A DNA stretch of 32,000 nt from Trichodesmium erythraeum IMS101 (GCF_000014265.1 NC_008312.1:2070001-2102000), one strand, 5' to 3'; positions 7,435 to 22,681 are shown, counted from the first letter of the stretch. The notes: generated by a model from the sequence alone, not told the origin. Program-made: numbers and translations.

Positions 7435-7703
7435 AAGTTTGATAATTGAAAATAATACTAAATCAGGAGAGACTTTCAATATACAACTAACCTAAATTAT
7501 AAGTTTAGAGAGTAGGTAAACTGTTGTGCATTTAAACGACTCATTGTTATGTGCATTGTTTACGCGAAAAACCATGATAAATTCTGACTTATTAAAGGCA
7601 CATTTTAAACTGGTATTAGCTGAGTAAGGGGTAGTAAATAGATACAGGAAAACAAAAAGGTCTAGTTCAAAAAATGATGATTTTTTTCCTGTTTCCTTAA
7701 CTG

Positions 7704-8402
7704 TTAATTATTTTCAGGTGCTTGACAAATCCAAACACAATCTCTCGGAACTGAGTTAATATCTTTATGAATAATTTGGTAGTTAAGATGGGAAAGAAAC
7801 TTTTCCATTATTTTGTCTGTCATTACTGAGTGAGCTGTACCATTTCGTTCACCCATAAGATTCTCATCCCAATCTTTGAGAAATCTTTGCCAACCTAAAT
7901 TACTAAGAGTATTTGTGTGATGAAAGATACAAAGCTTTTTTCCTTTTAATTTGCTAGGAATTTTAGTTAAGTAATTGAAAATATCTCTGGGTTCTAAATG
8001 CACCATTGTGTCATAGCAAAAGCAAACATCTGCTACTTCTGATTCAATTTCATTTAATGTTATTCCGTCAACTTTTACATATTTTATTTGATCTTCACCC
8101 AGTCTATTTTTAGTAGCATTTAACATAAACTTAGAAATATCAGCACATATTAATTTTTGGCAGTATTTAAGTAACAATGCTGCGGTTCTTCCCCCACCAA
8201 TTCCTATCTCTAACACTGTATCTTTTTGTTTTATATATGGAGCAATAAATTTTTTTTCTATTAATTTTTCGTAATCTGCTAATGAGTTTGCTGCTCCAGC
8301 TGCTTTGCCTATCCATTCATCACCTATATAGGTTAATTCTGGGTAATATTCTTGCCATTTTTTTGCATATTCTTCCCAGGCATTTTCATAATCAATAGTC
8401 AT
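7704..8402 (-). CDS. Class I SAM-dependent methyltransferase, 232 aa
   Basis: Motif I VLEIGIGGGR is followed by an acidic post-I residue (ICADIS) and the motif II/III spacing of Rossmann-fold methyltransferases. ATG start at 8402. Confidence 0.8.
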   Translation of the reverse strand: MTIDYENAWEEYAKKWQEYYPELTYIGDEWIGKAAGAANSLADYEKLIEKKFIAPYIKQKDTVLEIGIGGGRTAALLLKYCQKLICADISKFMLNATKNRLGEDQIKYVKVDGITLNEIESEVADVCFCYDTMVHLEPRDIFNYLTKIPSKLKGKKLCIFHHTNTLSNLGWQRFLKDWDENLMGERNGTAHSVMTDKIMEKFLSHLNYQIIHKDINSVPRDCVWICQAPENN

Positions 8403-9607: not shown

Positions 9608-10351
9608 TCAAAAGTAAATTCTCATATATTCAACTAATTTTTGATTGTATGGTTCAAAATATTCAACTAATTCTTGATATATTTCTTGACTAGGTTTTGA
9701 GTAATTACCAGGATTATATTGAATATATTTTTCTGAGGAATATGTAGGTATCTCTAAAAAATGAAATACTTTATTCATAGTTTCTTGAGGAGTACTAAAT
9801 AAGTCTTCACTTTTGAGAATGAGAAATTGTTCTTTAGGAAAAATGCTCATCCAATTTTGGAGTTGTTCAATATATTTGCCCCTTGCTAGATATGTATAAT
9901 GTTGATGGTTAAAACTATAATATGTTCCTGTTTGAATGATTTTATTAACTTCTCCCTGTAAACGAGTTTCTTCAGTAGCGATCGCCTCTTTCAAACTCAA
10001 AAATTCAGATCCTAATCTTACTTCATGGTAGTAATGAGAAATAGCTCTTTCAGTTGGGTTCCTCAAAAGAACAATTAGTTTCATCTGAGGATATTTATCA
10101 AAAACTCTTTGAGCTACTAGAGGATGAAATAAATAGTAAGGACTTGATTCTCCAGTAATCATTCCTAGTTCTAATTCGGGAAATTGTGATTTATACCATT
10201 CTAAATCTTTGTCAAAATTTAAATCAAAATAATGAATCTCATGTTGTAAAGATGGAGCAATTAAAGGATGTTGAACTAAATATTTATATAAGGAGTTAGT
10301 ACCACATTTCTGGGCTCCAATTATTAAAAAATATGGCTTGTTAATGTTCAT
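9608..10351 (-). CDS. PAPS-dependent sulfotransferase, 247 aa
   Basis: 5-prime-phosphosulfate binding loop IIGAQKCGTNSL at residues 10-21. 3-prime-phosphate binding motif LLRNPTERAISHY near residue 95. Size and order are typical of carbohydrate sulfotransferases. Confidence 0.85.
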   Translation of the reverse strand: MNINKPYFLIIGAQKCGTNSLYKYLVQHPLIAPSLQHEIHYFDLNFDKDLEWYKSQFPELELGMITGESSPYYLFHPLVAQRVFDKYPQMKLIVLLRNPTERAISHYYHEVRLGSEFLSLKEAIATEETRLQGEVNKIIQTGTYYSFNHQHYTYLARGKYIEQLQNWMSIFPKEQFLILKSEDLFSTPQETMNKVFHFLEIPTYSSEKYIQYNPGNYSKPSQEIYQELVEYFEPYNQKLVEYMRIYF

Positions 10352-11008: not shown

Positions 11009-14000
11009 TCACACTCTACAAAAGTAAGCTTCTTGGAATATTTGACCGTAAGTTTCAGTCATTTCTGCAAAGTTATTTAATGACTCCAATACATATTTAG
11101 CATTAGTAGCAAATTTATGACGTAACTCTTCATCTATCAATAAAGACGTCAAAACATTTGCTAATTCTTCTGGGTTTTCAGGAGTATAGAATAAACCGTT
11201 AATATTTGGCTTGACTTGTTCAACTATGCCAAAAACTGGAGTAGTAACTATAGGTAAACTATAAGACATTGCTTCTAATATTACTCTGGGGAAACTTTCT
11301 ATGCGAGAAGTACAAACAAATATATCTGCTGCTTGATAATATTTTGCTGTTTCTGGAGTTTCTCCTACTATTTCTACTCTTTGTTGAATTTCTTCTGGTA
11401 AGTTTTTGACAAGCTCGTGTAATTTTAAGCTGTAAAGGTTGGGGCGATCACCTACTAGAAAACATTTAATTTTTTGTCTTTCTTCTTCTGGCATAAATGA
11501 TAGGGCTCTTATTAAGTCATGTTGACCTTTCCTTTCACAGACAGTACCTAATAATAGAATAACTATTTCATCTTCTTTTACTCCTAAAACTGACCTTGCT
11601 TCTTGTCTAGACCATTTAGCGCTGGCTTTTTTTAATAATTCTAAATCTAGTCCATTATGAATGACTGTAAAATTGTGATGACTATTTAAAGGAAGATACC
11701 TATTTCGAGTAGCATCAGAAACAAAAATTATGCGATAAGGATAACGGAAACATTCTAATGCTCTGGCAGCTATCTCATTTCCAAAACGATTAAAATAAGT
11801 TTGCCAAGGTTCACTTTCATGCACATTCCAGACACTGGGAATATTTAACATTTGAGCCACATCTACCATAAAAAAATTTTCTAAAGTATTGATATACATC
11901 ACATCAATATTTAGAGATTTTATTTCTTGAGCAAAAGTAGTTAAAGCTGTATCATAAGCATGTCTTTCGTAAATATGTTCTAGAGGATTATCTTTAACAA
12001 TAACTTGAATATTTTGTTGTTGATAAATTTCTCTTAACTCCCCATCATTTACGGAAAATATTATTGGTTCAACAATTCCATCTTTTGCTAACTTTAGAGC
12101 TATTTCTAATTGATGAAGTGGGGCACCAGTTAGGTCTAAAGAATTACTACACATCAATATTTTAATTCTGGGAAAAGCTTCTTTTTGAGAAGTATAGAAG
12201 TTTTCTGTACTATAACTAATCTGATTATTTATTTCTGATTCATTTGGATAATTTTTCTCTAATGTCTGATTATTTATTTCTGACTCTTTATCAGATTTAT
12301 CGACTTTTACTTGAGTATTTATTTCCGGCTCTTTCTTAGAACTACCTGAATTCATAAAAACTTCTGGCTTTTGACTTCTGACTTCTAAATTTCTAATAAA
12401 ATATCTTCTCGGTTGAATTTGAAAACAATCACTTTCTAGAGACAAATGAGGACTATAAAACCCATCTATCATCTGAGAATATTTCCTACGATAATTTGCC
12501 TCTTCTTGAGGATTATCAGAATAACCCCGACTCGTTCCTTCCTTATGAATTAATTCAGCATCTGCACAATAAACCGAACGATAACCACTTTTTAAAAGTC
12601 GATAACCATAGTCAGCATCATTATAAGCAACAGCAAAATTTTCCTCATCAAAACCACCTAATTCTAAAAATAATTTTCGGGGAGTTAACATACAAGCTGC
12701 GGTTACTGCCGAATAATTTTTTGAAACAAACGCTTGGGAAAGATAACCCCTATTTTCACTATGTAATAATTTAAAAGCATGACCTGCTAAACCATGGTGT
12801 AAACCATGAATTACACCAGCATGTTGAATTCTTTTATCCGGATAAATCAACTTAGCACCCACCGCACCGACTCCAGGAATTTTTGCATATCCCATCATTT
12901 GACTTAACCAGTAGGGAGAAATAATTTCTGTGTCATTATTTAGAAATAGAATATACTCAGTTTTTACCTGTTCGACAGCGCGGTTGTTTATAGCAGCAAA
13001 ATTAAATTTTCCATCAGTATTTTTCATCGGAAAAACTAATATATTATCTTCCCCAGAATACAAACATTTTAAACCTGCCAAATATTCTAAAGTTTCAGGT
13101 TCATCACTTTCATTATCAATCACAAAAATTTGATAATTCTGATAGGTTGTCTTTCTCAAAGACTCCACACAAGCTTTCAATAACTTAACCTGATTTTTCG
13201 TTGGAATAATAATAGTTACTGAGTCACCTTGATCGGGAAAAGTTGGTTTAAAAATTCCTAACTTTTCCCGCACTGCCCAGTCTGGTTGATAAATATTTCC
13301 TGCCACACCTCGACGAATTAAACTTTCTTGAAGTGCTTTTTGACCTGCTAGAAAACTTTTCGGTTTTTCCCCTCCAGAAATAGCAGTCGAACCTGGAGTT
13401 GTTCGCCAATGATATAACACTAAAGGTAAATGTCCGACTTGACGAGAAATTTCTGTTGCTCTTAAAGCAAAATCATAATCTTGAGAACCTTCAAAACCAA
13501 TTCTAAATCCTCCTATTTTGTCGAAAATTTCTTTTCTCACTACACACAAATGACCTATATACATATAGGAAAGTAATAATTCTGGAGAATATTCTGGTTT
13601 AAATTGAGGGTCGAATCTTTTGCCTTCCGTACTAATTTTATCGTCATCGGAATAAAGAAAATCTATCTCTGAATTTTGACTTATATATAAAGCAACTTCC
13701 CCCAAAGCATCCGGAGTAAGTTCATCATCATTATCCAAAAAGAGAAGAAAATCTCCCGTGGCCAATTCGGCGGCGGAATTAGTCGCAGCACTAATATTGC
13801 CATTTTCAGAGCGGAATGTAAGTTTAATACGGGAATCAGTCTTAGCTCTTTCTGTCAGAATTTCCCGAATTTTCGGATTACTACTACAATCATCGGCTAT
13901 ACAAAATTCCCAATTTTGGTATACTTGATTTAGTACACTGGATATTCCCTGATGCAAAAATTTTAGAGGAGGATCATAAACTGGCATAACCACAGAAATT

Positions 14001-16984
14001 TTTGGCAAAGGAGTCCGACAACTTTCTAAACGGGATATTAAATATTGACGGGAGCGATCGCCCCAGTTATTTACTGCCAACCAAGCATCATAAACATCTA
14101 CAGTTTCTGGTAGGACAAACCCAGGGGGAAGCAATAAATCTCCCCCTTGTTTTTGCTGCTGTCTATATATTGCTAATATTTGTCGGGCAATACTAGGTAA
14201 TTCTGAAGGTAGGGGGATGATGCGACCTAATCTTTGTTTTCTTTCGGAAATTCGTTTTTGAATAGCTTGAGTAAATTTGGATAATTGCCGAAATTTATCT
14301 TTAGCTTTTTCCCAAAAACCATAACGTTTTAGTTGCAAAACTTCTGAGCAAGGAAAACCAACTATTTCCCCACTTTCCAAATATGCTTCTAAACTAACTT
14401 GCCATTTTCCGGGTGGAAGTTCAACGGTTACTTCAAAGCCACTATGGCCACTTCCTACCCAATTTGGGAAAATTTCCTCTACATCTTTCCGACGCAAACC
14501 ATAAGCGCAGTCTACAGAAATATCCCCATATTTAAGAACTAATTTGGTAATTTTCTCTTCTCGATGGCAACACCAACCAGCAAATAAAATTACTCCCTCC
14601 CTTTGTTGCCAGTTTGTGGGAGCATCAAAATTTGCTTCGACGGTAGATATTGATATGGGGTAGGTTACCAATTCATGCCACTTTCCTTTCTTTTCTTCTA
14701 CTTCAAGTATTAATTGGTAATTTCCTGGGGAAAGTTGTACAGATATTTGAAAGCCAGAATTTTGAGCAGTAGAAATATCATTATATTGTTGGGCAACATC
14801 TGGTCGTGGGATACCATACTTACCAAAAAAAACTTCGGTTCCTACTCTGGCACGAATATTTTGGATCTTGAGAATACTATTGTGGAAACACCAACCTACT
14901 ATTTCTATTTGGGAGTTGGAAATTTTCCAATTAATAGGGGAGTCGATAGAAAAAATGAAGCGCCCTCGTAAATTTTTCAGTTTCTTTTTTAGTTTTCCTT
15001 TCAAACTAAACCACTTTTCTCGTAGTTTCCAGAATTTGGAAGATTTCATCCCAGAAATTTCTGCCCTAAGCATTTCTGTTTCGTAGTGTTGAGCATCTAA
15101 TTGAGCTTGAGTTTGTTGGAGAGTGGCTTGAGTTTCTTGGAGAGTGGTTTGAGTTTCTTGGAGAGTGGTTTGAGTTTCTTGGAGAGTGGTTTGAGTTTCT
15201 TGGAGAGTGGTTTGAGTTTCTTGGAGAGTAGCTTGAGTTTCTTGGAGAGTGGCTTGAGTTTGTCCCAATACTCCTTGAGTTTGCCCTAATTCTGTTTCCA
15301 GGAATTGAATTTTATTTTGAGATTCTAATAATTTTACCTGAGTACCATCGAGTAATCTTTGAGCTTCTCCGAATTCTGTTTCTAGGAATTGAATTTTATT
15401 TTGAGATTCTAATAATTTTATCTGAGTACCATCGAGTAATCTTTGAGCTTCTCCAAATTCTGTTTCTAACAGTTGAATTTTAGTTTGAGACTCTTGTAAT
15501 TTCAGAATATTGCCATTAAGTCGTAGTGTAGTCTGACCTAACTTAGTTTCTAATATTCCAATTTTTTCCTGAGACTCTCCTAACTTAATTTGATTTCTCT
15601 CAAGTTTCATTTGACTTTGCCCAAAGTCAGTTTCTACTCCTAATAATTTTTTCTGAGATTCAGTAAATTTAATCTGAGTACCTTCTAGTTGAACTTGAGT
15701 TTTTCCTAATTCTGTTTCTAAACTAAATATTTTGACTAAAGCTTCTTTAAACCTAGTTTTTGAGTTATTAAATTGTGTCTGAGTTTGCCCTAAGTCTACT
15801 TCTAATCTAATAATTTTCTGTTGAGACTCTTGTAATTTTGTTTGATTATTTTCCAGTTGAGATTGAGTCTGCCCTAGTGTTCTTTCTAATGTGACTACTT
15901 TAGTTTGAGATGCTTGTAAATTTTTTACTTTACCTTCGAGTTGAACTTGAGTTTTACCTAATTCTATTTCTAGTAATTCTATCTTTTTACTAGACTCTTC
16001 GAGCTTAACTGACCTAATATTAATTTGTTGCTGAGTTTCACCTAATTCGGATTCTAATTTTCCTACCTTTTTTTGTGCTTCTTTAAATATTTTTTGCCAT
16101 TTTTCTACATCTGTTTCTAAACTACTAACTTGTTTTTCTAAACATCGAATATTGAACCAATCCCTAAACTCCCATAATTCTGATTCACTTTTAACCTTCG
16201 ACTCTTGGATGTTGACCTCTAAATCTCCACCTATGCCATTTTTTTCTAGTTGCTGATAAGTTTCTAATGTTTCTGGAAAATATTTTTCTATGAGACTAGG
16301 TTTATTGGTTTGGCTAATGTCTTTCACCAATAATGATTCAGCAAAAATCTCAGGAGAAGGTGCTGGTAAATTCATTTCAAATTTTTCGTTAACTGCCTGG
16401 ATAAAGCTTTCAGGATCTCTACCAATAATATCAACTTTACCTATTAAACATTTTGCTGAACATTGTTGATAAAAGTCTAATATTCTCTGATTGTAATTCA
16501 ACCACATTTTTACAGCTATTTCTGGTTGATCCAATAACTTTTTATCTGTACTTCGTCGATAAAGAGAGTCTACTACTTCCCAAGGAGAACGATAAACAAA
16601 AATAAATTTAGCATCGGGCAATAACTTTAACCAAAAGTTTAAAAATAATGTAGTCCTAGGGTCTTTCCATCCCCATATTTTGTGAGATTTTTCATTTTCT
16701 TCTTGACGATTTTTTATAAGTTTTCTTGCTATTTTTAAGTTTGGCTTCTTGACTACAATTTCTTGAGTTTCTAAGTTACTACCGAGGTCATCTATATGTT
16801 GCGACCGCAATATTTTTTTATGGAGTTCTACAAACTCAATATCTTCAAAATGCCCTCTAATATTTCCCAATTCAGGACCGAGTAATTTTTCTCCTATATT
16901 CACTCCTAAACTTTGAAATAAAGAAGCAGTTAAGGAGGTTCCTGAACGGTGCATTCCGGCAATAATCAAAGCTGTTGTTTTCAT
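11009..16984 (-). CDS. Giant multidomain glycan-assembly protein, 1991 aa. Domain order: N-terminal sulfotransferase, long repeat-built coiled coil, basic amphipathic segment, two duplicated ~100-aa modules, GT2, GT2, low-complexity linker, GT4.
   Basis: Single uninterrupted 5976-nt ORF with ATG at 16984 and AAGGAGG 8 nt upstream. The approximate domain map follows.
- Sulfotransferase at nt 16984-16235 (AGMHRSGTS P-loop; WGWKDPR...FVYRSPWEVVDS).
- Coiled coil at nt ~16190-15040.
- Duplicated modules at nt ~14960-14330.
- GT2-1 at nt ~14000-13385 (ISVVMPVYD...LFLDNDDEL).
- GT2-2 at nt ~13219-12520 (VTIIIPTKN...LFLNNDTEI).
- Linker at nt ~12400-12180.
- GT4 at nt ~12165-11012 (IKILMCSNSLDLTGAP...FPRVILEAMSYSLPIVTT). 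Confidence 0.9.
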   Translation of the reverse strand: MKTTALIIAGMHRSGTSLTASLFQSLGVNIGEKLLGPELGNIRGHFEDIEFVELHKKILRSQHIDDLGSNLETQEIVVKKPNLKIARKLIKNRQEENEKSHKIWGWKDPRTTLFLNFWLKLLPDAKFIFVYRSPWEVVDSLYRRSTDKKLLDQPEIAVKMWLNYNQRILDFYQQCSAKCLIGKVDIIGRDPESFIQAVNEKFEMNLPAPSPEIFAESLLVKDISQTNKPSLIEKYFPETLETYQQLEKNGIGGDLEVNIQESKVKSESELWEFRDWFNIRCLEKQVSSLETDVEKWQKIFKEAQKKVGKLESELGETQQQINIRSVKLEESSKKIELLEIELGKTQVQLEGKVKNLQASQTKVVTLERTLGQTQSQLENNQTKLQESQQKIIRLEVDLGQTQTQFNNSKTRFKEALVKIFSLETELGKTQVQLEGTQIKFTESQKKLLGVETDFGQSQMKLERNQIKLGESQEKIGILETKLGQTTLRLNGNILKLQESQTKIQLLETEFGEAQRLLDGTQIKLLESQNKIQFLETEFGEAQRLLDGTQVKLLESQNKIQFLETELGQTQGVLGQTQATLQETQATLQETQTTLQETQTTLQETQTTLQETQTTLQETQATLQQTQAQLDAQHYETEMLRAEISGMKSSKFWKLREKWFSLKGKLKKKLKNLRGRFIFSIDSPINWKISNSQIEIVGWCFHNSILKIQNIRARVGTEVFFGKYGIPRPDVAQQYNDISTAQNSGFQISVQLSPGNYQLILEVEEKKGKWHELVTYPISISTVEANFDAPTNWQQREGVILFAGWCCHREEKITKLVLKYGDISVDCAYGLRRKDVEEIFPNWVGSGHSGFEVTVELPPGKWQVSLEAYLESGEIVGFPCSEVLQLKRYGFWEKAKDKFRQLSKFTQAIQKRISERKQRLGRIIPLPSELPSIARQILAIYRQQQKQGGDLLLPPGFVLPETVDVYDAWLAVNNWGDRSRQYLISRLESCRTPLPKISVVMPVYDPPLKFLHQGISSVLNQVYQNWEFCIADDCSSNPKIREILTERAKTDSRIKLTFRSENGNISAATNSAAELATGDFLLFLDNDDELTPDALGEVALYISQNSEIDFLYSDDDKISTEGKRFDPQFKPEYSPELLLSYMYIGHLCVVRKEIFDKIGGFRIGFEGSQDYDFALRATEISRQVGHLPLVLYHWRTTPGSTAISGGEKPKSFLAGQKALQESLIRRGVAGNIYQPDWAVREKLGIFKPTFPDQGDSVTIIIPTKNQVKLLKACVESLRKTTYQNYQIFVIDNESDEPETLEYLAGLKCLYSGEDNILVFPMKNTDGKFNFAAINNRAVEQVKTEYILFLNNDTEIISPYWLSQMMGYAKIPGVGAVGAKLIYPDKRIQHAGVIHGLHHGLAGHAFKLLHSENRGYLSQAFVSKNYSAVTAACMLTPRKLFLELGGFDEENFAVAYNDADYGYRLLKSGYRSVYCADAELIHKEGTSRGYSDNPQEEANYRRKYSQMIDGFYSPHLSLESDCFQIQPRRYFIRNLEVRSQKPEVFMNSGSSKKEPEINTQVKVDKSDKESEINNQTLEKNYPNESEINNQISYSTENFYTSQKEAFPRIKILMCSNSLDLTGAPLHQLEIALKLAKDGIVEPIIFSVNDGELREIYQQQNIQVIVKDNPLEHIYERHAYDTALTTFAQEIKSLNIDVMYINTLENFFMVDVAQMLNIPSVWNVHESEPWQTYFNRFGNEIAARALECFRYPYRIIFVSDATRNRYLPLNSHHNFTVIHNGLDLELLKKASAKWSRQEARSVLGVKEDEIVILLLGTVCERKGQHDLIRALSFMPEEERQKIKCFLVGDRPNLYSLKLHELVKNLPEEIQQRVEIVGETPETAKYYQAADIFVCTSRIESFPRVILEAMSYSLPIVTTPVFGIVEQVKPNINGLFYTPENPEELANVLTSLLIDEELRHKFATNAKYVLESLNNFAEMTETYGQIFQEAYFCRV
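15101..15262 (-). repeat. In-frame 21-bp tandem repeat, about 7.5 units, encoding TLQETQ[TA] heptads
   Basis: Units start at 15116, 15137, 15158, 15179, 15200, 15221 and 15242, with a partial unit at 15101-15115. Units 2-5 are identical (ttggagagtggtttgagtttc on the + strand). Units 1, 6 and 7 differ by 1-2 nt. Confidence 0.95.
15288..16127 (-). repeat. In-frame 84-bp (28-codon) tandem repeat array, about 10 units, diverging progressively
   Basis: Adjacent units 15288-15371 and 15372-15455 match at 81 of 84 nt. Units further upstream are recognisable mainly at protein level (LETELGKTQVQLEG..., LERTLGQTQSQLEN..., LESELGETQQQINI...). Confidence 0.85.
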
Positions 16985-16992
16985 CTAATTTT

Positions 16993-16999
16993 CCTCCTT
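16993..16999 (-). promoter_or_regulatory. Shine-Dalgarno (AAGGAGG) for the giant CDS, inside the 19-nt spacer after the upstream gene
   Basis: The reverse complement of cctcctt at 16993-16999 lies 8 nt upstream of the ATG at 16984. The upstream CDS stop (TAA) is at 17004-17006, which implies co-transcription. Confidence 0.6.
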
Positions 17000-17003
17000 A
17001 ATA

Positions 17004-19568
17004 TTAAGCAAAGTTTGCAAAATTCCAAGATACTAATACTTCTTGTTCTGGTGGTAAAGTGATTCTATCAGTAATTACAGTTTTTAATCTGACAATTACT
17101 TCTCCTGAATATTCAGGAATTTCTATTTCTATCAAACCATAATTAGTTTTACCAAATATATTTTTATTGTTTAGTGGCAGAGTTTTTTGTACTAAAATTT
17201 CTCCATTTTTGTTATTAACAATCTCAATTTTACAGCCAATAGAATAAGTACCTAACGGTTCTATTTGTGGATAAGCTCTAAATACTTTTTGACCTTCTAT
17301 TTGAAATTTCATCTCAGTATGATATTGATGACTCTCACAGAATACTTTTTCAGATAAATTTCCAGTTTTTACATCATTAGATAAAGGTATGTTTCCTACT
17401 TGTGTTGTTAGTTGCTCCTTTGTTTGACTATCAGACAATATTTTCTCTGACAAATTTTCACCTTCTCCATTATCAGATATGAGTATTTTTTCTACTTCTA
17501 TCTCTTTTCCTACTATTTCTTCCGTAGCATTTCCCACATTTTCTGTCTTTAGAAAATTATTAATTTCTAAATTATTATTTAGGAGTTCTAAATTGATATC
17601 TCCTGTTATTTTTTTGGTAATATTTTCCGCATCTTTCTTTTTACTAAAATTATTAATGTCTGATTTCTGACTTCTTACTTCTGACTTAATATTAATAGGT
17701 TGAGCAACTAAACTTCCAGAAATTGGTTTTTGTAAAATATATAAATCTTGACCATTTGCTAAATTACTTTGAGGAAATCTTTTAATGTGTTTAAACATAG
17801 AAAATATTTCCTGGTAAGCTGTTGGTGTATGAACTGCTGCAATAGTATGTTGACCTTGACCATCTGTTTCTCCTTGATGGTCAAGATATAAAAATAATCC
17901 CTCTTCACCAATACTATACATTTCTGCTATATGAGAATTTCCACTGCGAAAAACATCATAAACTATGGGGAAAAATTGAGGTCCGTGAAGAGTCATAAAT
18001 AATATTCCACCTGGTCGTAAAACTCGATAAATATCCCACGCCCAAAGATGTTGTAAATCTAAACTTAGATGAGTAAATACTGAGATAGCATTAATTAAAT
18101 CAAACTGATTATTTTCAAAAGGTAACGGTGGCTGAATATCGTTATTTTTGACAGTGGCAAATTTAATATTTTCTTGACACCATTCAGCACATTCGGCAAA
18201 AACGTCACAACCAAATAGTTTTTGATTAGGGGAAAGTTCAGGTTCAAATGCCATTAAGTAACGCCCTACCCCACAACCAAAATCTAGTATTTTCTCAAAT
18301 TGATTAAAATTAAATCCTGCGGTTTGAAGATAACTTTTTACGGTATATCTTAGGTCATCAAATGAACTAATAAAAGCTTTGATACTCGGGTTGCCACTTA
18401 TTCTTAGTAATAGATCATTTGGTGGTATTAATGCGATGTTATGAACGGGATAAATATTAACTACTCGCTCCAAATTAAAATTATTAATAATTTTAACTAG
18501 TATAATGTCATTTGCTGATAAATTTTGAGTATTAATAGTAGATGACCATTGATATTTTTGAGTTTTATTTTCAGGCTTTGGGTAACAGCTTTCTACTTCG
18601 TTTCCATTGATTAAAAATGATATTTTTTCTACCTTTTCTTCTGGATTAATATCTGCTGCCCATCCCTCTAAATAAATATCTCCTGTAACTGTCATTTGAA
18701 TTTTTTTGCAACCTCCATCAGGATGACAATGAAAGTTTAATAATTCATCTATTTGTTCCCCAACTTGTTCCTTATTACTTCTTCTTGCTTCCTTCTTTCT
18801 GATAATATATAAGTCATGATGTCCACAAAGACCTCTTTGAATTCGATGCCATTTTGCCTTTCCCTGAGTAACTTTTTGAATTACTTTAGCTACCCATTTT
18901 TCTCCCACATAAGTAACTCCATAATCTTCAGTTTTCAGAAAAAGACTTTCACTTTCTGGAGTAAAATAAATTTCTTCTGCTTCTACGTCTGCCTCTATAG
19001 TCATTAAAGATAAATCATGAGTACTGAAGATTAATATACCATTTTCAGTCAAGCTACTATATAATTTTTCTAACCAACTAGTAAAAGTTTTTTGGGGAGT
19101 GTGACTAAAAAAAGAACAAGCAAAAATGCAGTCAAATTTTTGATTTATTTGATAGTTTTCTGGATAATTAGTTGAAACTATCCCTTCGACACCAAACTGT
19201 TGTTTTTGAAATTCTACTGCTTTGGGATAAATATCCGAAACCCATATTTTATTGTTTGGTATTTCTTGAACCAAAAACCTACTAAAACGACCATAACCAC
19301 TAGCAAAGTCTAGAAAAGAGGATATATTTTCAAATCCATCAAAATACCATTCTACAATTTGTTTTACTGCATCTAAAATTCTTTTTCCATTAGAAAAATA
19401 TCGTAGCAATGCTTCATCTTTCCTCCCGTCTGTATTTTTCAAAGCATAGAGATACATTTCATCTTGTGGATGAATTATCACGTTTATTTTGTCAGATTTT
19501 TTAGTTTGGTCTTGAATAAATTGATCTATAATTAACTTGTTATTGAAATCTATTTTTTCAGGGTTCAT
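17004..19568 (-). CDS. Double class I SAM-dependent methyltransferase, 854 aa, with a low-complexity linker and a ~130-aa C-terminal domain of unknown function
   Basis: There are two separate motif I signatures. FLDFASGYGRFSRFL lies at nt ~19282-19318, and ILDFGCGVGRYLMAF at nt ~18255-18295, each followed by methyltransferase motifs. The tracked ORF starts at a TTG (19625); the first ATG at 19568 (MNPEKIDF...) is preferred. Confidence 0.85.
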   Translation of the reverse strand: MNPEKIDFNNKLIIDQFIQDQTKKSDKINVIIHPQDEMYLYALKNTDGRKDEALLRYFSNGKRILDAVKQIVEWYFDGFENISSFLDFASGYGRFSRFLVQEIPNNKIWVSDIYPKAVEFQKQQFGVEGIVSTNYPENYQINQKFDCIFACSFFSHTPQKTFTSWLEKLYSSLTENGILIFSTHDLSLMTIEADVEAEEIYFTPESESLFLKTEDYGVTYVGEKWVAKVIQKVTQGKAKWHRIQRGLCGHHDLYIIRKKEARRSNKEQVGEQIDELLNFHCHPDGGCKKIQMTVTGDIYLEGWAADINPEEKVEKISFLINGNEVESCYPKPENKTQKYQWSSTINTQNLSANDIILVKIINNFNLERVVNIYPVHNIALIPPNDLLLRISGNPSIKAFISSFDDLRYTVKSYLQTAGFNFNQFEKILDFGCGVGRYLMAFEPELSPNQKLFGCDVFAECAEWCQENIKFATVKNNDIQPPLPFENNQFDLINAISVFTHLSLDLQHLWAWDIYRVLRPGGILFMTLHGPQFFPIVYDVFRSGNSHIAEMYSIGEEGLFLYLDHQGETDGQGQHTIAAVHTPTAYQEIFSMFKHIKRFPQSNLANGQDLYILQKPISGSLVAQPINIKSEVRSQKSDINNFSKKKDAENITKKITGDINLELLNNNLEINNFLKTENVGNATEEIVGKEIEVEKILISDNGEGENLSEKILSDSQTKEQLTTQVGNIPLSNDVKTGNLSEKVFCESHQYHTEMKFQIEGQKVFRAYPQIEPLGTYSIGCKIEIVNNKNGEILVQKTLPLNNKNIFGKTNYGLIEIEIPEYSGEVIVRLKTVITDRITLPPEQEVLVSWNFANFA

Positions 19569-19866
19569 ATTTTTATATTTTAATTTGTTTCTCTCGTTTT
19601 TTTTACCATATAAAATATCTAACAATCAAGGTTAAGGTTTAAGAAAGAGGTAGTACAATTTAAAAAAAATATTTTTATCGTAGAAGTTTTATGAACAAAC
19701 ATCTACAATTTTTAATTAATTAATGGGTAAATGTAATATTTTTCAAGTTCCTTTTAATTGGGAATAAAAAAATATTCCCTATAGGTATTTGAAGTATAAG
19801 GATTCAGTAGTTGCTACTAATAAATAATAACTGAAATAATCTGATTTTTTCTACCCTATTTCTATT

Positions 19867-21285
19867 TTAAATAGATTCAATTTTGGCTTTATTGTTCAGA
19901 GTATTATGCTCAATGTTTAAGCTAGGTTCTATTAAAAAGTCAATGACACCTGTACCGCATGAATCACTATAATGTTGGACTTTAAACATTGCAATGTCAA
20001 TGCAACGGGATAAATAGGTTAGATGATCGTTTGCCATTCCAACAACTCCAGCATTTAAAAAATATACACCAGGATTTAGTAAACATTTGAACCTAAATTT
20101 AACTATAACTATTTGTTGTGCTGCAATATATTCTACTGATTTAGTATAACCATGTAAAGATGCTCCTCCTAACTCAAAACCACTGAGAGTTTTTATTAAC
20201 ATTCCAAACCTAATTTTGGATGTTGAATTAATAAATTTTACTCTATATGTATAGTAATATTCCCGGCGGTTAACTAAATGATTTACCCTTTTACCTTCCA
20301 AAGTAATAATATGGGGGTCAATAATTTTTGCTCCTTTATCAGGATAATGTATGGTATTTGAGGGTATCATATCTGGATCATAAATTTCTTCGTATTCTAT
20401 TGATTGTGCAATCTGATATTGATCTAGATTTTCACTATTTATTGCCGATTTAGATGGTGATTTATCTGTATTTTGATCATCAAATAAATCTTGAATGGTT
20501 AAATTAGGAATTTGGCGAATTTCTTCTCTTATTGATGGAATTTTATCTGGAAAAGCATAGATTAATTTCTGATATTTAGAAACTACATATTTAGGAGTAT
20601 GATAAAGCAACATTTCCCCATGATCCATCAAAATTGCTGAGTCACAAAGCTGAACCACTGTTGAAGCAGCATGAGACACAAATAAAATTGTACCTCCTCT
20701 TTCTTGAATGTCTTGAATACGTGCAAAACATTTTCTTTGAAATGCTTCATCTCCTACTGAAAGTGCTTCATCAACTACTAAAATATCTGGATCTACACTG
20801 GTAGCTACAGCAAATCCTAATCTAATAAACATTCCGCTAGAATAAGTTTTTACAGGTTGGTCAATAAAATCACCAATATCGGCAAAACTAGCGATTTGGT
20901 CAAATTTTGCTTCTATTTCTGATGTTTTTAATCCTAATAGTTGACCGTTAAAAAAAACGTTTTGTCTCCCTGTAAATTCTGGATTAAATCCACTACCAAG
21001 TTCTAGTAGTGCAGAAATTCTCCCTTGAATTTTTACTTTTCCTGTTGTTGGCGTTAGAGTTCCCACAATTATTTGTAAAAGAGTACTTTTTCCTGAACCA
21101 TTCCGTCCTACAATTCCTAAAGTATGCCCTTTTTCTATTTCTATATTTATATTTTGTACTGCCCAAAATTCATCAGCACAACTTTTTCCAGGGAGTAAAA
21201 TTTCTTTTAAACGGTCTACAGGATGTTGGTACCGTTTAAAACATTTAGAAACATTTTGTAGTGAAATTACAGTTTCAGGTATCAT
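19867..21285 (-). CDS. wzt: Polysaccharide-export ABC transporter ATP-binding protein, Wzt type, 472 aa, with a ~220-aa C-terminal glycan-binding-type extension
   Basis: Walker A GRNGSGKST, ABC signature YSSGMFIRLGFA, Walker B ILVVDEALSVGD and H-loop FVSHA all lie in the first ~240 aa. The remainder (nt ~20535-19870) has the beta-rich pattern of Wzt C-terminal domains (...YRVKFINSTSKIRFGMLIKTLSGFELGG...LNPGVYFLNAGV...). Confidence 0.9.
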   Translation of the reverse strand: MIPETVISLQNVSKCFKRYQHPVDRLKEILLPGKSCADEFWAVQNINIEIEKGHTLGIVGRNGSGKSTLLQIIVGTLTPTTGKVKIQGRISALLELGSGFNPEFTGRQNVFFNGQLLGLKTSEIEAKFDQIASFADIGDFIDQPVKTYSSGMFIRLGFAVATSVDPDILVVDEALSVGDEAFQRKCFARIQDIQERGGTILFVSHAASTVVQLCDSAILMDHGEMLLYHTPKYVVSKYQKLIYAFPDKIPSIREEIRQIPNLTIQDLFDDQNTDKSPSKSAINSENLDQYQIAQSIEYEEIYDPDMIPSNTIHYPDKGAKIIDPHIITLEGKRVNHLVNRREYYYTYRVKFINSTSKIRFGMLIKTLSGFELGGASLHGYTKSVEYIAAQQIVIVKFRFKCLLNPGVYFLNAGVVGMANDHLTYLSRCIDIAMFKVQHYSDSCGTGVIDFLIEPSLNIEHNTLNNKAKIESI

Positions 21286-21320
21286 GGATTTTATATGTAA
21301 GCGTTTCCTGGGGAATGCTG

Positions 21321-21345
21321 TACAAATAGCTGATGGCTATTTGTA
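21321..21345. repeat. Perfect 10-bp inverted repeat with a 5-nt loop (TACAAATAGC-TGATG-GCTATTTGTA), 36 nt upstream of the wzt start
   Basis: Read directly: 21321-21330 is the exact reverse complement of 21336-21345. It lies in the unusually long 379-bp wzm-wzt spacer. Confidence 0.6.
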
Positions 21346-21664
21346 ATAAGTTATTAACTTATTCTTATTATATCCAAGGAGGAATTAGTCTCCAAGGAGA
21401 ATTAAAACTTATCAATAAAAAGGTAATTGTTATGGTATACTATATACTGTATAAATTATCAAATTTTAATCCTTTTTTTTGTAAGTATTTGCTTATTAAC
21501 TATAAGCTCTTACATAATTTAGGAAGTAAAAGTAATTAAAAATTCAGTATAATTAAGGTTACTGTCAAAGTATTCTCTTTTAAGCATGAAAAATTATATT
21601 TTTCATTTAAACCTCGCTTTTAAAGGGGGTGAATATTAAGCTAATAGTTAGGGAATGAATACTT

Positions 21665-22519
21665 TCATAAAACATCGGCAAAAGCAGGACGTAATTTTTG
21701 ATAAACCCACAAGCCAAAATAAAATATTAGTGTAGACATTAAAGTAGCAATTCCTAATTCTCCCCAGTGTTGAATTTCTCCTACTAATATTAGGTCACGA
21801 TATACTTCGACTATCGCTGTTAAAGGATTACACCAAAATACCCAAACTCTCCAATTTTCTGGAATTACTGATGCAGGATATACTATTGGTGTAACATAAA
21901 ACCAAAGATTAATAATTACTCCTAAAGTCTGTGGAATATCCCGTAAAAATACTGTTAATCCGGCAGTAAAATATCCTAAACCTGCTGTTAATAAAAGTTG
22001 AGGTATAAATACTATAGGTAGTAGCCATAATGTTTGATTTATTACCCCAGATGATATATAAAGCATTCCTATTAAAGCTATTAACCCAAATGTACTTTCT
22101 AGAAATGTTGAAAGAATAGGAACTAAGGGTAATAAACTGAGTGGAAAGACTAATTTTTTAACTAAATTGGGCTGTCTAATTACACATCCAGAAGCTTGAG
22201 TTAATCCATTAGTGAAAGCTAGCCAAGCTATTAATCCTGCAAATAGCCATAGTCCAAAGGTTAGCTTACTATCTTCTGGTAATCCTCTGAGGCTCAGTTT
22301 AACTTTAAGAATAATTGAGAAGACGTAGGTATAAATTAAAAGTTGGGATAGCTGATTGAGTAGTGGCCATAAATTTCCAAGAATTGAGCCTTTATACCTG
22401 GCCTCTAAATCCCTTCGTACTAATGTGAATAATAAGTTTAAATTAACTAACCAATCAGTATTTACCACGGTTAGCCAATTACTAACTCTGCTGGTTTTGC
22501 GGATAATACTTTTCATCAT
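21665..22519 (-). CDS. wzm: Polysaccharide-export ABC-2 type permease, Wzm type, 284 aa
   Basis: The N-terminal RRDLEARYKGSILGNLWPLLNQL motif is characteristic of ABC-2 (Wzm/KpsM/TagG) permeases and is followed by about six hydrophobic segments. It sits upstream of wzt on the same strand. Confidence 0.9.
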   Translation of the reverse strand: MMKSIIRKTSRVSNWLTVVNTDWLVNLNLLFTLVRRDLEARYKGSILGNLWPLLNQLSQLLIYTYVFSIILKVKLSLRGLPEDSKLTFGLWLFAGLIAWLAFTNGLTQASGCVIRQPNLVKKLVFPLSLLPLVPILSTFLESTFGLIALIGMLYISSGVINQTLWLLPIVFIPQLLLTAGLGYFTAGLTVFLRDIPQTLGVIINLWFYVTPIVYPASVIPENWRVWVFWCNPLTAIVEVYRDLILVGEIQHWGELGIATLMSTLIFYFGLWVYQKLRPAFADVL

Positions 22520-22681
22520 AAATTTTTGGTAAGTGGAAAACCCACCTCATGTAAACCGGATTTAGTATAAACTACTTACGAATGAGAACAAGCCGGAAGC
22601 CGGAGAAAATTAATTACGCTCAAGAGCTTTCTCAGGCACAAACTACAGATTTCCGGTTTTATTTAATTTACGTTCCCTACT

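What the first reader, a model, noticed from the sequence alone, without database searches (positions are those of the whole stretch)
11009..22519. Sulfotransferase, coiled coil, GT2, GT2 and GT4 in one polypeptide beside Wzm/Wzt: a candidate ruler-measured, possibly sulfate-capped glycan assembly system
Seen in sequence. One 5976-nt ORF encodes, from N to C:
- PAPS-type sulfotransferase motifs;
- about 380 residues of heptad repeats;
- a basic amphipathic segment;
- two duplicated ~100-aa modules;
- two GT2 domains (DNDD and NNDTE);
- a linker;
- a GT4 domain.
It follows a double methyltransferase after a 19-nt spacer containing AAGGAGG. Further upstream on the same strand are a Wzt with an extra ~220-aa C-terminal domain, and Wzm.

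Established knowledge. In ABC-transporter-dependent O-antigen and S-layer glycan pathways whose Wzt carries a C-terminal carbohydrate-binding domain, polymerisation is stopped by a non-reducing-end cap (methyl, methyl-phosphate or beta-Kdo). Chain length is set by a coiled coil that spaces the terminator from the polymerase. The known examples are E. coli O9a WbdD/WbdA, and Klebsiella O12 / Raoultella WbbB, where terminator, coiled coil and GTs form one chain.

Inference. This protein has the WbbB-type logic, but a sulfotransferase occupies the terminator position and the coil is much longer. To my knowledge, sulfation as the termination and export signal has not been described. The adjacent double methyltransferase is an alternative or additional capping enzyme.
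Basis: partly seen in the sequence, partly recalled or inferred. Interest (0 to 1): 0.8.

Follow-up and report, generated by a model that had tools for sequence, protein, structure and literature searches.

The report
Sulfotransferase-on-a-ruler glycan assembly protein
A Trichodesmium-like cyanobacterium fuses a sulfate-adding enzyme, a rigid rod about 55 nm long and three sugar-polymerising enzymes into one protein beside a cap-reading export pump, so a sulfate group probably ends and measures a surface sugar chain, a chemistry I found in no readable paper on such systems.

Summary
The 1991-aa ORF (11009-16984, minus strand) contains:
- a PAPS-type sulfotransferase (ST) with invariant cofactor-binding residues;
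- 52 unbroken heptads, modelled as helix;
- a basic helix;
- two Ig-like modules;
- GT2, GT2 and GT4 domains.

Upstream lie Wzm, a Wzt carrying a Wzt_C domain, and a double methyltransferase.

The locus is not a one-off. About 75 of the 80 best-matching loci (one genome per species), nearly all Microcoleaceae, keep the same gene order. More distant cyanobacteria have an unfused version: ST, coil and a C-terminal SKFWKLR anchor motif, often next to Wzm/Wzt_C and sometimes next to APS kinase. This mirrors the known split between WbdD (separate) and WbbB (fused).

Coil length ranges from 210 to 476 aa but is a whole number of heptads in 51 of 53 orthologues, as expected for a rigid ruler.

Best reading (about 0.55): the coil-borne ST caps the non-reducing end, and the coil sets chain length. 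Main rival: the cap is a methyl group. In Microcoleus the neighbouring methyltransferase carries its own coil and the same anchor motif.

No chemistry was tested. I rate it a new variant of a known kind, of moderate to high interest.

The parts
21665..22519 (-). wzm, the ABC-2 permease of the glycan exporter
   Evidence: Pfam ABC2_membrane, E 6.7e-23. Weak NCBIfam matches to Wzm/RfbD and KpsM. Conserved in 75 of 84 loci.
19867..21285 (-). wzt, the ATPase of the exporter (472 aa). The NBD is about nt 20506-21285.
   Evidence: Pfam ABC_tran, E 3.6e-22. The best solved relative is Aquifex aeolicus Wzt (7k2t, 8dku), E 8e-70.
19939..20352 (-). Wzt_C carbohydrate-binding domain of Wzt (residues 312-449), the putative cap reader
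   Evidence: Pfam Wzt_C, E 3.3e-24, covering profile positions 3-142 of 143. Found by tblastn in 78 of 84 loci.
17004..19625 (-). Double methyltransferase (873 aa from a TTG start). MT domain 1 is about nt 19011-19328 and MT domain 2 about nt 17982-18350. The C-terminal ~230 aa are unassigned.
   Evidence: Two stretches match each of Methyltransf_12, _25, _11 and _23. No heptad coil and no SKFWKLR motif. The N-terminal half is 50-54% identical to a ~500-aa MT-coil-anchor protein at the same position in Microcoleus.
16985..17003 (-). 19-nt spacer with the Shine-Dalgarno-like AAGGAGG, between the methyltransferase and the giant gene
   Evidence: Sequence read directly.
16175..16984 (-). PAPS-type sulfotransferase domain (residues 1-270) of the giant protein, the putative chain terminator
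   Evidence: Sulfotransfer_3, 36.8 bits (gathering score 27). Invariant R13 S14 G15 S17 (5'-PSB) and R132...S140 (3'-PB) across 69 sequences. AF2 pLDDT 80-95. The top 38 Foldseek PDB hits are all sulfotransferases, including TPST1/2, CurM ST, OLS ST, Stf9, Stf1, Stf0 and 3-OST.
15044..16174 (-). Coiled-coil rod (residues 271-647, 52 uninterrupted heptads, about 55 nm), the putative molecular ruler
   Evidence: Heptad statistics. AF2 helices. Built from 84-nt repeats (15275-16056) and 21-nt repeats (15086-15303). Length is a multiple of 7 aa in 51 of 53 orthologues.
14969..15043 (-). Basic helix SSKFWKLREKWFSLKGKLKKKLKNL (residues 648-672), the putative membrane-proximal anchor
   Evidence: 11 K/R against 1 D/E; no transmembrane segment in the protein. 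Helical in AF2. The same motif ends the unfused ST-coil proteins and the Microcoleus MT-coil protein.
14321..14965 (-). Two tandem Ig/FN3-like beta-sandwich modules (residues ~674-781 and 782-888)
   Evidence: 32% identity, E 5e-17. AF2 pLDDT about 90. Foldseek matches tandem Fn3 and bacterial Ig domains, e.g. 3pdd at 8e-8 and SiiE. No Pfam family.
14015..14320 (-). Helical linker (residues 889-990) containing a second basic amphipathic helix at 895-912
   Evidence: AF2 helices 890-918, 926-945 and 976-988. Hydrophobic moment 0.58 and net charge +5.
13385..14005 (-). GT2 module a (residues ~994-1200, DNDD motif)
   Evidence: Glycos_transf_2, E 3e-45. The best solved relative is the second GT2 module of chondroitin polymerase K4CP (2z86/2z87).
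12470..13222 (-). GT2 module b (residues ~1255-1505, NNDTE motif)
   Evidence: Glyco_tranf_2_3, E 7e-19, and Glyco_tranf_2_2.
12170..12382 (-). Low-complexity linker (residues ~1535-1605)
   Evidence: Sequence read. No domain hit. Poorly conserved in alignment A2.
11009..12169 (-). GT4 (GT-B) module (residues ~1606-1991) plus the stop codon
   Evidence: Glyco_transf_4 and Glycos_transf_1, E 1.7e-37. The best solved relative is Anabaena Alr3699 (4xso), E 3e-21.
9608..10351 (-). Stand-alone Sulfotransfer_1 enzyme (247 aa), probably for internal sulfation
   Evidence: Pfam E 1.6e-21. Present only in the Trichodesmium/Okeania/Dapis/Planktothrix loci, 11 of 84.
7704..8402 (-). Small SAM methyltransferase (232 aa), a conserved cluster member
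   Evidence: Methyltransf_25 and Methyltransf_11. Found in 57 of 84 loci.
6163..7479 (-). GT4 glycosyltransferase (Glyco_trans_4_3 family), a candidate primer/adaptor transferase
   Evidence: Pfam E 2e-72. 80-89% identical in 53 of 84 loci. The adaptor role is inference by analogy with WbdB/WbdC.

Best explanation
This is the core of an ABC-transporter-dependent surface-glycan assembly line of the 'capped and measured' type.

**Proposed mechanism**
1. The giant protein is peripheral to the cytoplasmic membrane. It is held there by the basic helix at residues 648-672, and possibly also by the one at 895-912.
2. Its three glycosyltransferase modules (GT2, GT2, GT4) lie at the membrane. They polymerise a repeat-unit glycan on a polyprenol carrier.
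3. The 52-heptad coiled coil, an oligomeric rod of about 55 nm, holds the N-terminal PAPS-dependent sulfotransferase away from the membrane.
4. Only chains long enough to reach the sulfotransferase are sulfated at the non-reducing end. That sulfate blocks further elongation.
5. The Wzt_C domain of Wzt recognises the capped end, which licenses export through Wzm/Wzt.
6. The double methyltransferase, the stand-alone Sulfotransfer_1 and the small methyltransferase decorate the chain. The methyltransferase may also contribute to the terminal epitope.

**Shown here**
- domain identities;
- the helical, phase-perfect coil;
- conserved PAPS-binding residues;
- conserved synteny;
- the existence of fused and unfused formats;
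- heptad-quantised coil length.

**Inferred**
- membrane association;
- oligomeric state;
- sulfation of the chain end;
- termination;
- the ruler function;
- cap reading by Wzt_C;
- the identity of the glycan.
For: **Architecture.** The order is terminator-like enzyme, coil, membrane-proximal segment, polymerase modules. Kelly et al. 2024 (PMC11231755) describe this order for WbbB and ORF6-O7. They state that an extended coil with the terminating enzyme at its distal end is the marker of this assembly strategy.

**Transporter.** Wzt carries Wzt_C. tblastn finds it in 78 of the 84 loci compared.

**The sulfotransferase looks active.**
- The 5'-PSB residues (R13, S14, G15, S17) and 3'-PB residues (R132, S140) are invariant.
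- It has a sulfotransferase fold.
- An APS kinase gene directly flanks ST-coil genes in L085 and L088.

**Unfused relatives have WbdD topology.** They consist of ST, a Q-rich heptad coil and a C-terminal TSKFWKLR motif.
- They sit beside or near a Wzt_C-bearing Wzt in 4 of the 6 loci sampled; Wzm was also found in three of these.
- In L087 the cluster is only Wzm, Wzt_C and ST-coil.

**Rod-like behaviour.**
- The spacer between the ST junction motif and the anchor motif is a multiple of 7 aa in 51 of 53 fused orthologues, across 23 distinct lengths from 210 to 476 aa.
- It is a multiple of 7 aa in 28 of 45 other family members, against 1/7 expected (p about 2e-13).
- The next most common class is +4, a stutter.
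Against: - No structural chemistry exists for this glycan. I found no sulfate-terminated ABC-pathway glycan in the searchable literature.
- A methyltransferase sits immediately upstream in 78 loci. In 57 of them it has its own coil and the same anchor motif. Methyl could therefore be the cap, or part of it.
- Some family members lack both a long coil and a nearby Wzt (L001, L088). The ST family is not terminator-only.
- From memory, unverified: calcium spirulan of Arthrospira, which I recall as a related filamentous cyanobacterium, is a sulfated methyl-rhamnan. Its sulfates are internal and its non-reducing ends carry O-methyl sugars.
- The AF2 model is a monomer with two low-confidence fold-backs. 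Oligomeric state and straightness are not shown.
- The d positions of the heptads are half polar (T/S), which is unusual for a canonical coil.
Confidence: 0.55

Rival explanations
1. Methyl cap with decorative sulfate. The chain-terminating signal read by Wzt_C is an O-methyl group, or an O-methylated terminal sugar, added by the adjacent methyltransferase, as in E. coli O8 and K. pneumoniae O5. The coil-borne sulfotransferase sulfates residues along the distal part of the growing chain without stopping it. The coil only positions or oligomerises the complex.
For: - A methyltransferase lies directly upstream of the giant gene in 78 of 84 loci.
- In 57 of 78 it is a ~500-aa MT-module-coil protein ending in the same SKFWK[LI]R motif, which is WbdD-like.
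- All established small-group caps are methyl or methyl-phosphate (Kelly 2024).
- From memory: spirulan has methylated non-reducing ends and internal sulfate.
Against: - In the window itself the methyltransferase has lost both coil and anchor, while the sulfotransferase keeps the longest coil.
- L087 keeps only Wzm, Wzt_C and ST-coil, with no methyltransferase within 10 kb.
- A decorating enzyme has no obvious need for a 31-71 nm phase-conserved rod.
Confidence: 0.25
2. Scaffold, not ruler. The coil is an oligomerisation or scaffolding element that assembles a multi-enzyme complex. Chain length is set kinetically or by the transporter, and neither sulfate nor methyl acts as a length-coupled terminator.
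For: - Coiled coils commonly serve oligomerisation.
- Coil length varies widely even within Trichodesmium populations (259-385 aa), which could mean that length is not critical.
- Replication slippage in 21-nt and 84-nt repeats gives multiples of 7 aa without any selection.
Against: - Heptad quantisation also holds in distant family members whose repeat sequences differ (15 of 26 representatives of 50%-identity clusters, p 3e-7).
- The co-occurrence with Wzt_C is, per Kelly 2024, characteristic of capped, length-controlled systems.
- The enzyme-coil-anchor order is kept in both fused and unfused forms.
Confidence: 0.1
3. A different acceptor. The sulfotransferase acts on something other than the polymer end, for example a protein such as the neighbouring oscillin-family protein (tyrosine or glycan sulfation), or the lipid-linked primer.
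For: - The top fold matches are tyrosylprotein sulfotransferases.
- An oscillin-family RTX gene lies in or beside the cluster in the window and in L003, L004, L078 and L086.
Against: - Foldseek scores for TPST and for the CurM/OLS/Stf sulfotransferases are similar (3e-7 against 2e-6) and all at 11-19% identity, so the fold does not indicate the acceptor.
- The sulfotransferase is cytoplasmic, with no signal peptide or transmembrane segment, and is fused to the polymerase.
- Oscillin is not adjacent in most Microcoleus loci.
Confidence: 0.05

Closest known systems
WbbB of Klebsiella pneumoniae O12 / Raoultella terrigena (single-protein terminator, ruler and polymerase)
   Same: One polypeptide carries an N-terminal chain-modifying enzyme, an extended coiled coil and C-terminal polymerising glycosyltransferase modules. 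It works with Wzm and a CBM-bearing Wzt (described in PMC11231755; architecture here).
   Different: - The WbbB terminator is a beta-Kdo glycosyltransferase (GT99 from memory), not a sulfotransferase.
- There are two polymerase modules rather than three.
- WbbB has no Ig-like modules.
- The coil here (about 370 aa) is, from memory, several times longer.
- No sequence homology of the terminator domain was found.
ORF6 of K. pneumoniae O7 (Kelly et al. 2024, PMC11231755)
   Same: N-terminal small-group transferase, an Ig-like domain, a coiled coil, then two GT2 modules. Further GT activity is supplied separately. The authors note cyanobacterial orthologues.
   Different: - The ORF6-O7 cap is methyl-phosphate, made by a methyltransferase plus an atypical kinase.
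- Its Ig-like domain precedes the coil. Here two Ig-like modules follow the anchor helix.
- Here a GT4 is fused as a third module.
WbdD/WbdA of E. coli O9a/O8 (= K. pneumoniae O3/O5)
   Same: The unfused relatives (P0160, P0143, P0166, P0203) have WbdD topology: catalytic head, coil, C-terminal membrane-associated helix, with separate glycosyltransferases and a Wzt_C transporter.
   Different: The head is a PAPS sulfotransferase rather than a kinase/methyltransferase. In the window the terminator and the polymerase are fused.
Synechan (xss) system and 'ABC-type' sulfotransferase clusters of cyanobacteria (Maeda et al. 2021, PMC8205485)
   Same: PAPS-dependent sulfation of cyanobacterial extracellular glycans. 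The authors note sulfotransferase genes in ABC-type clusters and many sulfotransferases in Trichodesmium.
   Different: Synechan uses the Wzx/Wzy pathway with stand-alone sulfotransferases that decorate internal residues. The parts of the paper I read mention no coil, ruler or cap.
CurM / OLS activating sulfotransferases and tyrosylprotein sulfotransferases (structural neighbours of the ST domain)
   Same: Same PAPS-binding fold and 3'-PB motif region.
   Different: Identity is 11-19%. The acceptors differ (a beta-hydroxyacyl-ACP; protein tyrosine). None is attached to a coil or to glycosyltransferases.

Membership tests
Capped-glycan ABC-transporter systems with a coiled-coil terminator (WbdD/WbbB paradigm) | Wzm/Wzt exporter whose Wzt carries a C-terminal carbohydrate-binding (Wzt_C) domain | tested here: met
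   Pfam ABC2_membrane, ABC_tran and Wzt_C (E 3e-24, 140 of 143 profile positions). NBD closest to Aquifex Wzt.
Capped-glycan ABC-transporter systems with a coiled-coil terminator (WbdD/WbbB paradigm) | [quoted passage not shown] | tested here: met
   52 uninterrupted heptads, no proline, z=17 at period 3.5. AF2 helices over 271-647 except two low-confidence breaks. Oligomeric state not tested.
Capped-glycan ABC-transporter systems with a coiled-coil terminator (WbdD/WbbB paradigm) | The chain-modifying enzyme sits at the end of the coil distal to the membrane-association and polymerase end | tested here: met
   The order is ST (1-270), coil (271-647), basic helix (648-672), then the GT modules. 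The order is the same in unfused relatives, where the basic motif is C-terminal. Actual membrane binding was not tested.
Capped-glycan ABC-transporter systems with a coiled-coil terminator (WbdD/WbbB paradigm) | A non-reducing-end cap that stops polymerisation and is bound by the Wzt CBM | not testable with these tools
   Requires glycan NMR/MS, in vitro termination assays and CBM binding assays.
Capped-glycan ABC-transporter systems with a coiled-coil terminator (WbdD/WbbB paradigm) | Coil length determines chain length | not testable with these tools
   Indirect only: the spacer is a whole number of heptads in 51 of 53 orthologues and 28 of 45 other members.
WbbB / WbdD protein families (homology) | A terminator domain homologous to the WbbB beta-Kdo transferase or to the WbdD kinase/methyltransferase | tested here: not met
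   The N-terminal domain is a sulfotransferase by HMM and by fold. No kinase, Kdo-transferase or methyltransferase hit occurs in the giant protein. The protein works like these proteins but is not a member of their families.
PAPS-dependent sulfotransferases (Sulfotransfer_3, PF13469) | HMM match above the gathering score | tested here: met
   32.1 bits in the full protein and 36.8 bits for the isolated domain; gathering score 27.
PAPS-dependent sulfotransferases (Sulfotransfer_3, PF13469) | 5'-phosphosulfate-binding loop and 3'-phosphate-binding motif (R-x7-S) | tested here: met
   GMHRSGTS (R13, S14, G15, S17 invariant) and YRSPWEVVDS (R132, S140 invariant) across 69 sequences. Assigning these motifs to PAPS binding rests on general knowledge of the family.
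PAPS-dependent sulfotransferases (Sulfotransfer_3, PF13469) | Sulfotransferase fold | tested here: met
   AF2 pLDDT 80-95 for residues 1-250. Foldseek PDB ranks 1-38 are all sulfotransferases, best E 3e-7.
PAPS-dependent sulfotransferases (Sulfotransfer_3, PF13469) | Sulfotransfer activity and identity of the acceptor | not testable with these tools
   Supporting context only: APS kinase genes adjacent to homologues in L085 and L088.

The most novel reading that the evidence does not exclude
Sulfate is a previously unrecognised chain-termination and export signal; as a monoanion it resembles the methyl-phosphate cap of O9a.

The ruler that places it is evolutionarily tunable. Slippage in the 21-nt and 84-nt repeats adds or removes whole heptads. 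Natural Trichodesmium populations would then carry alleles specifying different glycan lengths (coils of 259-385 aa, about 38-57 nm). This could diversify the cell surface against phages or grazers.

In the Trichodesmium/Okeania/Dapis clade the measured, sulfated glycan may be attached to, or work with, the neighbouring oscillin-family Ca2+-binding surface protein rather than with lipid A-core.
Probability: 0.2. Interest if true: 0.85.

Novelty: new variant of a known kind. Interest (0 to 1): 0.62.

Why it matters
The experimentally established terminators of ABC-transporter-dependent glycans add methyl, methyl-phosphate or beta-Kdo. All were worked out in enterobacteria (Kelly 2024).

A sulfotransferase in the terminator position would add a new capping chemistry. 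It would also extend the molecular-ruler principle to a large and ecologically important group, the bloom- and crust-forming filamentous cyanobacteria (Trichodesmium, Okeania, Microcoleus). It would link sulfur metabolism (PAPS supply) to cell-surface architecture.

The family offers a natural experiment:
- dozens of alleles differ only in heptad number;
- fused and unfused formats both exist;
- clades exist with one coil-borne enzyme (the sulfotransferase) or two (sulfotransferase and methyltransferase).

This makes the ruler hypothesis, and the question of how Wzt_C domains read different caps, directly testable. It also gives a concrete gene set for the poorly understood biosynthesis of sulfated, methylated cyanobacterial polysaccharides.

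Tried and rejected
- **Promoter and terminator scan of 5300-23400.** It found fewer sites than in shuffled sequence, so it gives no operon boundaries.
- **Sequence search of the ST domain against PDB.** It gave only weak hits (CurM ST, E 0.012). The whole-alignment profile was dominated by the GT modules. The fold search settled the question.
- **Homology between the Ig-like modules and the methyltransferase.** I tested the middle region of the window's methyltransferase and the Microcoleus methyltransferase. BLASTP was not significant (E 0.5 at best). Only a motif-level resemblance remains (RPDV...SG), so I make no claim.
- **Hydrophobic moment of the basic helix.** The 648-672 helix is not among the 12 highest 18-residue hydrophobic-moment windows. 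I call it basic and aromatic rather than classically amphipathic. A second candidate is 895-912.
- **Literature.** Eight searches found no sulfate cap and no sulfotransferase terminator. The Mann, Kimber and Whitfield 2019 census and the paper under PMC7397119 cited in the same reference list are not held. I recall the census abstract mentioning predicted new chemistries, but I cannot confirm whether sulfotransferases were among them.
- **The look-up of encoding contigs for P0230.** No record was returned.
- **Source genome.** It was not identified. The closest named relatives are Trichodesmium MAGs at 82-86% identity, and an ENA contig is 98% identical.
- **Disordered Q/T-rich linker or single alpha-helix domain.** I rejected both because of the strict single-register hydrophobic position, the absence of proline and the AF2 helices.

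Full report
**1. What is in the sequence**

The finding covers four co-directional genes on the minus strand.
- wzm, 21665-22519.
- wzt, 19867-21285.
- An 873-aa methyltransferase gene, 17004-19625.
- A 5976-nt ORF, 11009-16984, encoding 1991 aa.

The giant ORF starts 19 nt after the methyltransferase stop codon. The spacer contains AAGGAGG.

Pfam assigns the following.
- Wzm: ABC2_membrane.
- Wzt: ABC_tran plus Wzt_C (residues 312-449, E 3e-24, almost the full profile).
- Methyltransferase: two SAM-methyltransferase domains.
- Giant protein: Sulfotransfer_3 (6-174), coiled-coil families (about 280-665), Glycos_transf_2 (997-1158), a second GT2 (1256-1485) and a GT4/GT-B module (1620-1963).

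The Wzt nucleotide-binding domain is closest to the solved Aquifex aeolicus O-antigen Wzt (E 8e-70).

Downstream on the same strand lie four more genes:
- a stand-alone Sulfotransfer_1 enzyme (9608-10351);
- a small methyltransferase (7704-8402);
- a Glyco_trans_4_3 GT4 (6163-7479);
- an RTX-repeat protein (3515-5386).

The closest named relatives are Trichodesmium MAGs at 82-86% amino-acid identity. An ENA contig is 98% identical. The window is therefore from a Trichodesmium-like cyanobacterium.

**2. The sulfotransferase domain**

Scanned alone, residues 1-284 score 36.8 bits against Sulfotransfer_3, above the gathering score of 27.

I aligned 69 homologues that are 33-85% identical. The invariant residues are:
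- R13, S14, G15 and S17 in GMHRSGTS, the 5'-phosphosulfate-binding loop;
- R132 and S140 in YRSPWEVVDS, the R-x7-S 3'-phosphate motif;
- a WGWKDPR block and E47.

The AlphaFold2 model has pLDDT 80-95 over this domain. Its first 38 Foldseek matches in the PDB are all sulfotransferases. They include TPST1/2, the CurM and OLS sulfotransferases, mycobacterial Stf9, Stf1 and Stf0, and heparan sulfate 3-OSTs.

An APS kinase gene, which makes PAPS, lies directly beside homologues in two other cyanobacteria.

I conclude that the domain is a bona fide, probably active, PAPS-dependent sulfotransferase. The fold does not reveal its acceptor.

**3. The coil**

Residues 280-645 are 52 consecutive heptads with no stutter or skip.
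- One position is L/I/F/V in 51 of 52 heptads.
- The position three residues later is T/L/S/A.
- There is no proline.
- Hydrophobicity power exceeds every one of 2000 shuffles, with z=17 at period 3.5 and z=10 at period 7.

At the DNA level the region is an array of 84-nt units (four heptads each) followed by 21-nt units.

The AF2 monomer model is helical over 271-396, 425-563 and 577-647. Two low-confidence breaks occur where the monomer folds back on itself. I read these as an artefact of modelling a single chain. The region is not predicted to be disordered.

At about 0.1485 nm per residue, a 371-aa rod would be about 55 nm long.

**4. The rest of the giant protein**

- **Basic helix.** Residues 648-672 (SSKFWKLREKWFSLKGKLKKKLKNL) carry 11 K/R against 1 D/E. 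The protein has no predicted transmembrane helix.
- **Ig-like modules.** Two modules are 32% identical (E 5e-17). They model confidently as tandem beta-sandwiches and match Fn3 and bacterial Ig domains.
- **Helical linker.** It contains a second basic amphipathic helix at 895-912.
- **GT2a.** It is most similar to one module of the bifunctional chondroitin polymerase K4CP.
- **GT4.** It is most similar to Anabaena Alr3699.

**5. Distribution**

All 120 listed full-length homologues keep ST, coil, modules and GT2. All but two partial sequences also keep GT4. They come from Trichodesmium, Okeania, Dapis, Kamptonema, Microcoleus and Tychonema.

A scan of one genome per species found 437 stretches encoding a relative of the query. 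In the 80 best loci the conserved gene order is as follows:
1. UCP020893-like gene;
2. wzm;
3. wzt (NBD plus Wzt_C);
4. methyltransferase;
5. giant gene;
6. Sulfotransfer_1 (optional);
7. small methyltransferase;
8. GT4.

Wzt_C is present in 78 of the 84 loci compared.

The ST domain family is large. It has 605 clusters at 50% identity with E<1e-30. Many members are proteins of 300-800 aa.

Those I inspected consist of the ST domain, a conserved W-x-F-x-D-W junction, a Q-rich heptad coil of 40-300 aa and a C-terminal TSKFWKLRxxW motif. That motif is the same one that follows the coil in the window protein. This is the WbdD topology.

Genomic contexts of the sampled stand-alone members:

| Locus | Context |
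|---|---|
| L085 | ruvB, UCP020893, Wzm, Wzt_C, APS kinase, ST-coil, GT4, GT2, GT2, RmlD-like, RmlC, MT |
| L086 | Wzm, Wzt_C, ST, RTX-like, ST-coil, GT2-GT2, MTs, RmlC, RmlD |
| L087 | Wzm, Wzt_C, ST-coil only |
| L003 | Wzt_C, Sulfotransfer_1, RTX, ST-coil |
| L001 | No Wzt nearby; short tail, beside a sulfatase |
| L088 | No Wzt nearby; beside APS kinase |

The fused and unfused formats thus parallel the known WbbB and WbdD/WbdA formats.

**6. Quantised rod length**

I measured the spacer between the junction motif and the anchor motif.
- It is a multiple of 7 aa in 51 of 53 fused orthologues. These span 23 distinct lengths from 210 to 476 aa, or about 31-71 nm.
- Among the 29 sequences closest to the window it takes 13 values from 259 to 476 aa (10 of them between 301 and 385 aa). 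All are multiples of seven.
- In other family members it is a multiple of 7 in 28 of 45 cases, where 1 in 7 is expected (p about 2e-13).
- In the representatives of 50%-identity clusters alone the figure is 15 of 26 (p 3e-7).
- The second most frequent class is +4, the classic stutter.

Repeat slippage explains part of this pattern. Its persistence in distant members with different repeat sequences argues that the phase between head and anchor is under selection. That is what a rigid rod predicts, and a flexible tether does not.

**7. The methyltransferase**

In the window it is a double methyltransferase with no coil and no anchor motif.

In 57 of 78 orthologous loci, mainly Microcoleus and Tychonema, the gene at the same position is different. 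It encodes a protein of about 500 aa with four parts:
- the homologous methyltransferase domain;
- a beta-rich module;
- a heptad coil of about 95 aa;
- a C-terminal ESSKFWKIR motif.

This is a second WbdD-like protein in the same cluster. It also raises the possibility of two coil-borne enzymes at different heights, or of a hetero-coil.

**8. Mechanism and comparison with known systems**

Kelly et al. 2024 (PMC11231755) summarise the paradigm.
- A terminator at the distal end of a coiled-coil ruler.
- Polymerase modules at or recruited to the membrane-proximal end.
- Terminal caps of methyl, methyl-phosphate or beta-Kdo.
- Formats that range from fully fused (WbbB) through partly fused (ORF6-O7: MT-kinase, Ig, coil, GT2-GT2) to separate (WbdD/WbdA and O4).

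From memory of the wider literature, the paradigm also includes a CBM on Wzt that reads the cap.

The window protein meets every architectural criterion I could test. Its head is a sulfotransferase, so it is not homologous to WbbB or WbdD heads. It works like them without belonging to their families.

A sulfate ester on the acceptor hydroxyl would block elongation just as the O9a phosphate does. It also carries the same single negative charge as a methyl-phosphate diester. Both points are inference.

I put the full model (sulfate cap, ruler and CBM read-out) at about 0.55. The methyl-cap rival stands at 0.25, a non-ruler scaffold at 0.10 and a different acceptor at 0.05.

The product is unknown. 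It could be O-antigen, a capsule or sheath polymer, or a surface-glycoprotein glycan. Rhamnose-pathway genes in the unfused clusters hint at a rhamnan. So does a CmcI-type rhamnosyl O-methyltransferase homologue at 27863-28603.

**9. Novelty**

Maeda et al. 2021 noted sulfotransferase genes in ABC-type clusters of cyanobacteria, and many sulfotransferases in Trichodesmium. In the passages I read, they did not mention a coil, cap or ruler.

Eight full-text searches found no paper that describes a sulfate cap or a sulfotransferase terminator.

The 2019 census by Mann, Kimber and Whitfield could not be read. I recall that it predicted new chemistries, and it may already list such proteins. If so, the prediction is not new, but it remains untested.

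I rate this a new variant of a known kind, with interest 0.62. The added value here has four parts:
- the breadth of conservation;
- the fused/unfused duality with a shared anchor motif;
- the heptad-quantised natural length variation;
- the second, methyltransferase-bearing coil protein in sister clades.

Noticed in passing
window 3515-5386 (minus strand): The 623-aa RTX-repeat protein downstream of the cluster belongs to the oscillin family. Full-length homologues at about 40% identity are named 'Oscillin' in NCBI records (P0453, P0477). RTX-like genes also lie in or beside the cluster in L003, L004, L078 and L086. In Dapis and Okeania, homologues are recorded on contigs of the same length as the cluster-bearing contigs. 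From memory, oscillin is an extracellular Ca2+-binding glycoprotein of gliding Oscillatoriales. The glycan made here might therefore be attached to it or interact with it.
   Followed up: partly
L034 8840-10351 (Microcoleus vaginatus HSN003) and 56 other loci: The methyltransferase upstream of the giant gene is here a ~500-aa protein made of a methyltransferase domain, a beta-rich module, a ~95-aa heptad coil and a C-terminal SSKFWKIR motif. It is a second WbdD-like protein in the same cluster. The window's clade instead has a coil-less double methyltransferase of 810-1110 aa.
   Followed up: partly
window 22708-23352 (minus strand): A 214-aa ORF with no hit in the local Pfam copy lies between ruvB and wzm. 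It is conserved at that position in 67 of 84 loci and is listed as PF27721 (UCP020893) in L085. It may be just a neighbour or an unrecognised component.
   Followed up: partly
window 30569-31057 and 31115-31636 (minus strand): Two adjacent ORFs match the C-terminal half (profile 204-335) and the N-terminal half (profile 2-165) of DUF3326. This looks like one gene split by a frameshift, a stop codon or an insertion.
   Followed up: no
window 27863-30567 (minus strand): A second small sugar-modification group lies about 5 kb beyond ruvB on the same strand. It comprises a CmcI-type rhamnosyl O-methyltransferase homologue, a SAM methyltransferase and a PLP-dependent OKR_DC_1/DegT-like enzyme.
   Followed up: no
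window 12215-12384 and 17654-17687: The low-complexity linker of the giant protein and the C-terminal region of the double methyltransferase share short DNA repeats (23-26 nt, 81-87% identity). These encode the peptide EVRSQK followed by E/I/N/K-rich sequence. The origin is unknown.
   Followed up: partly
window 8403-9607 and 10352-11008: Two long stretches between cluster genes contain no ORF longer than 41 aa. The 1-kb bin covering the second (10001-11000) has 26% G+C. Nothing was identified in them.
   Followed up: partly
L085 9460-10014 and L088 11257-11874: APS kinase (PAPS synthesis) genes directly flank stand-alone ST-coil genes in two distant cyanobacteria. This supports PAPS dependence. 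The Pfam scans of ORFs of at least 100 aa found no APS kinase in the window.
   Followed up: partly
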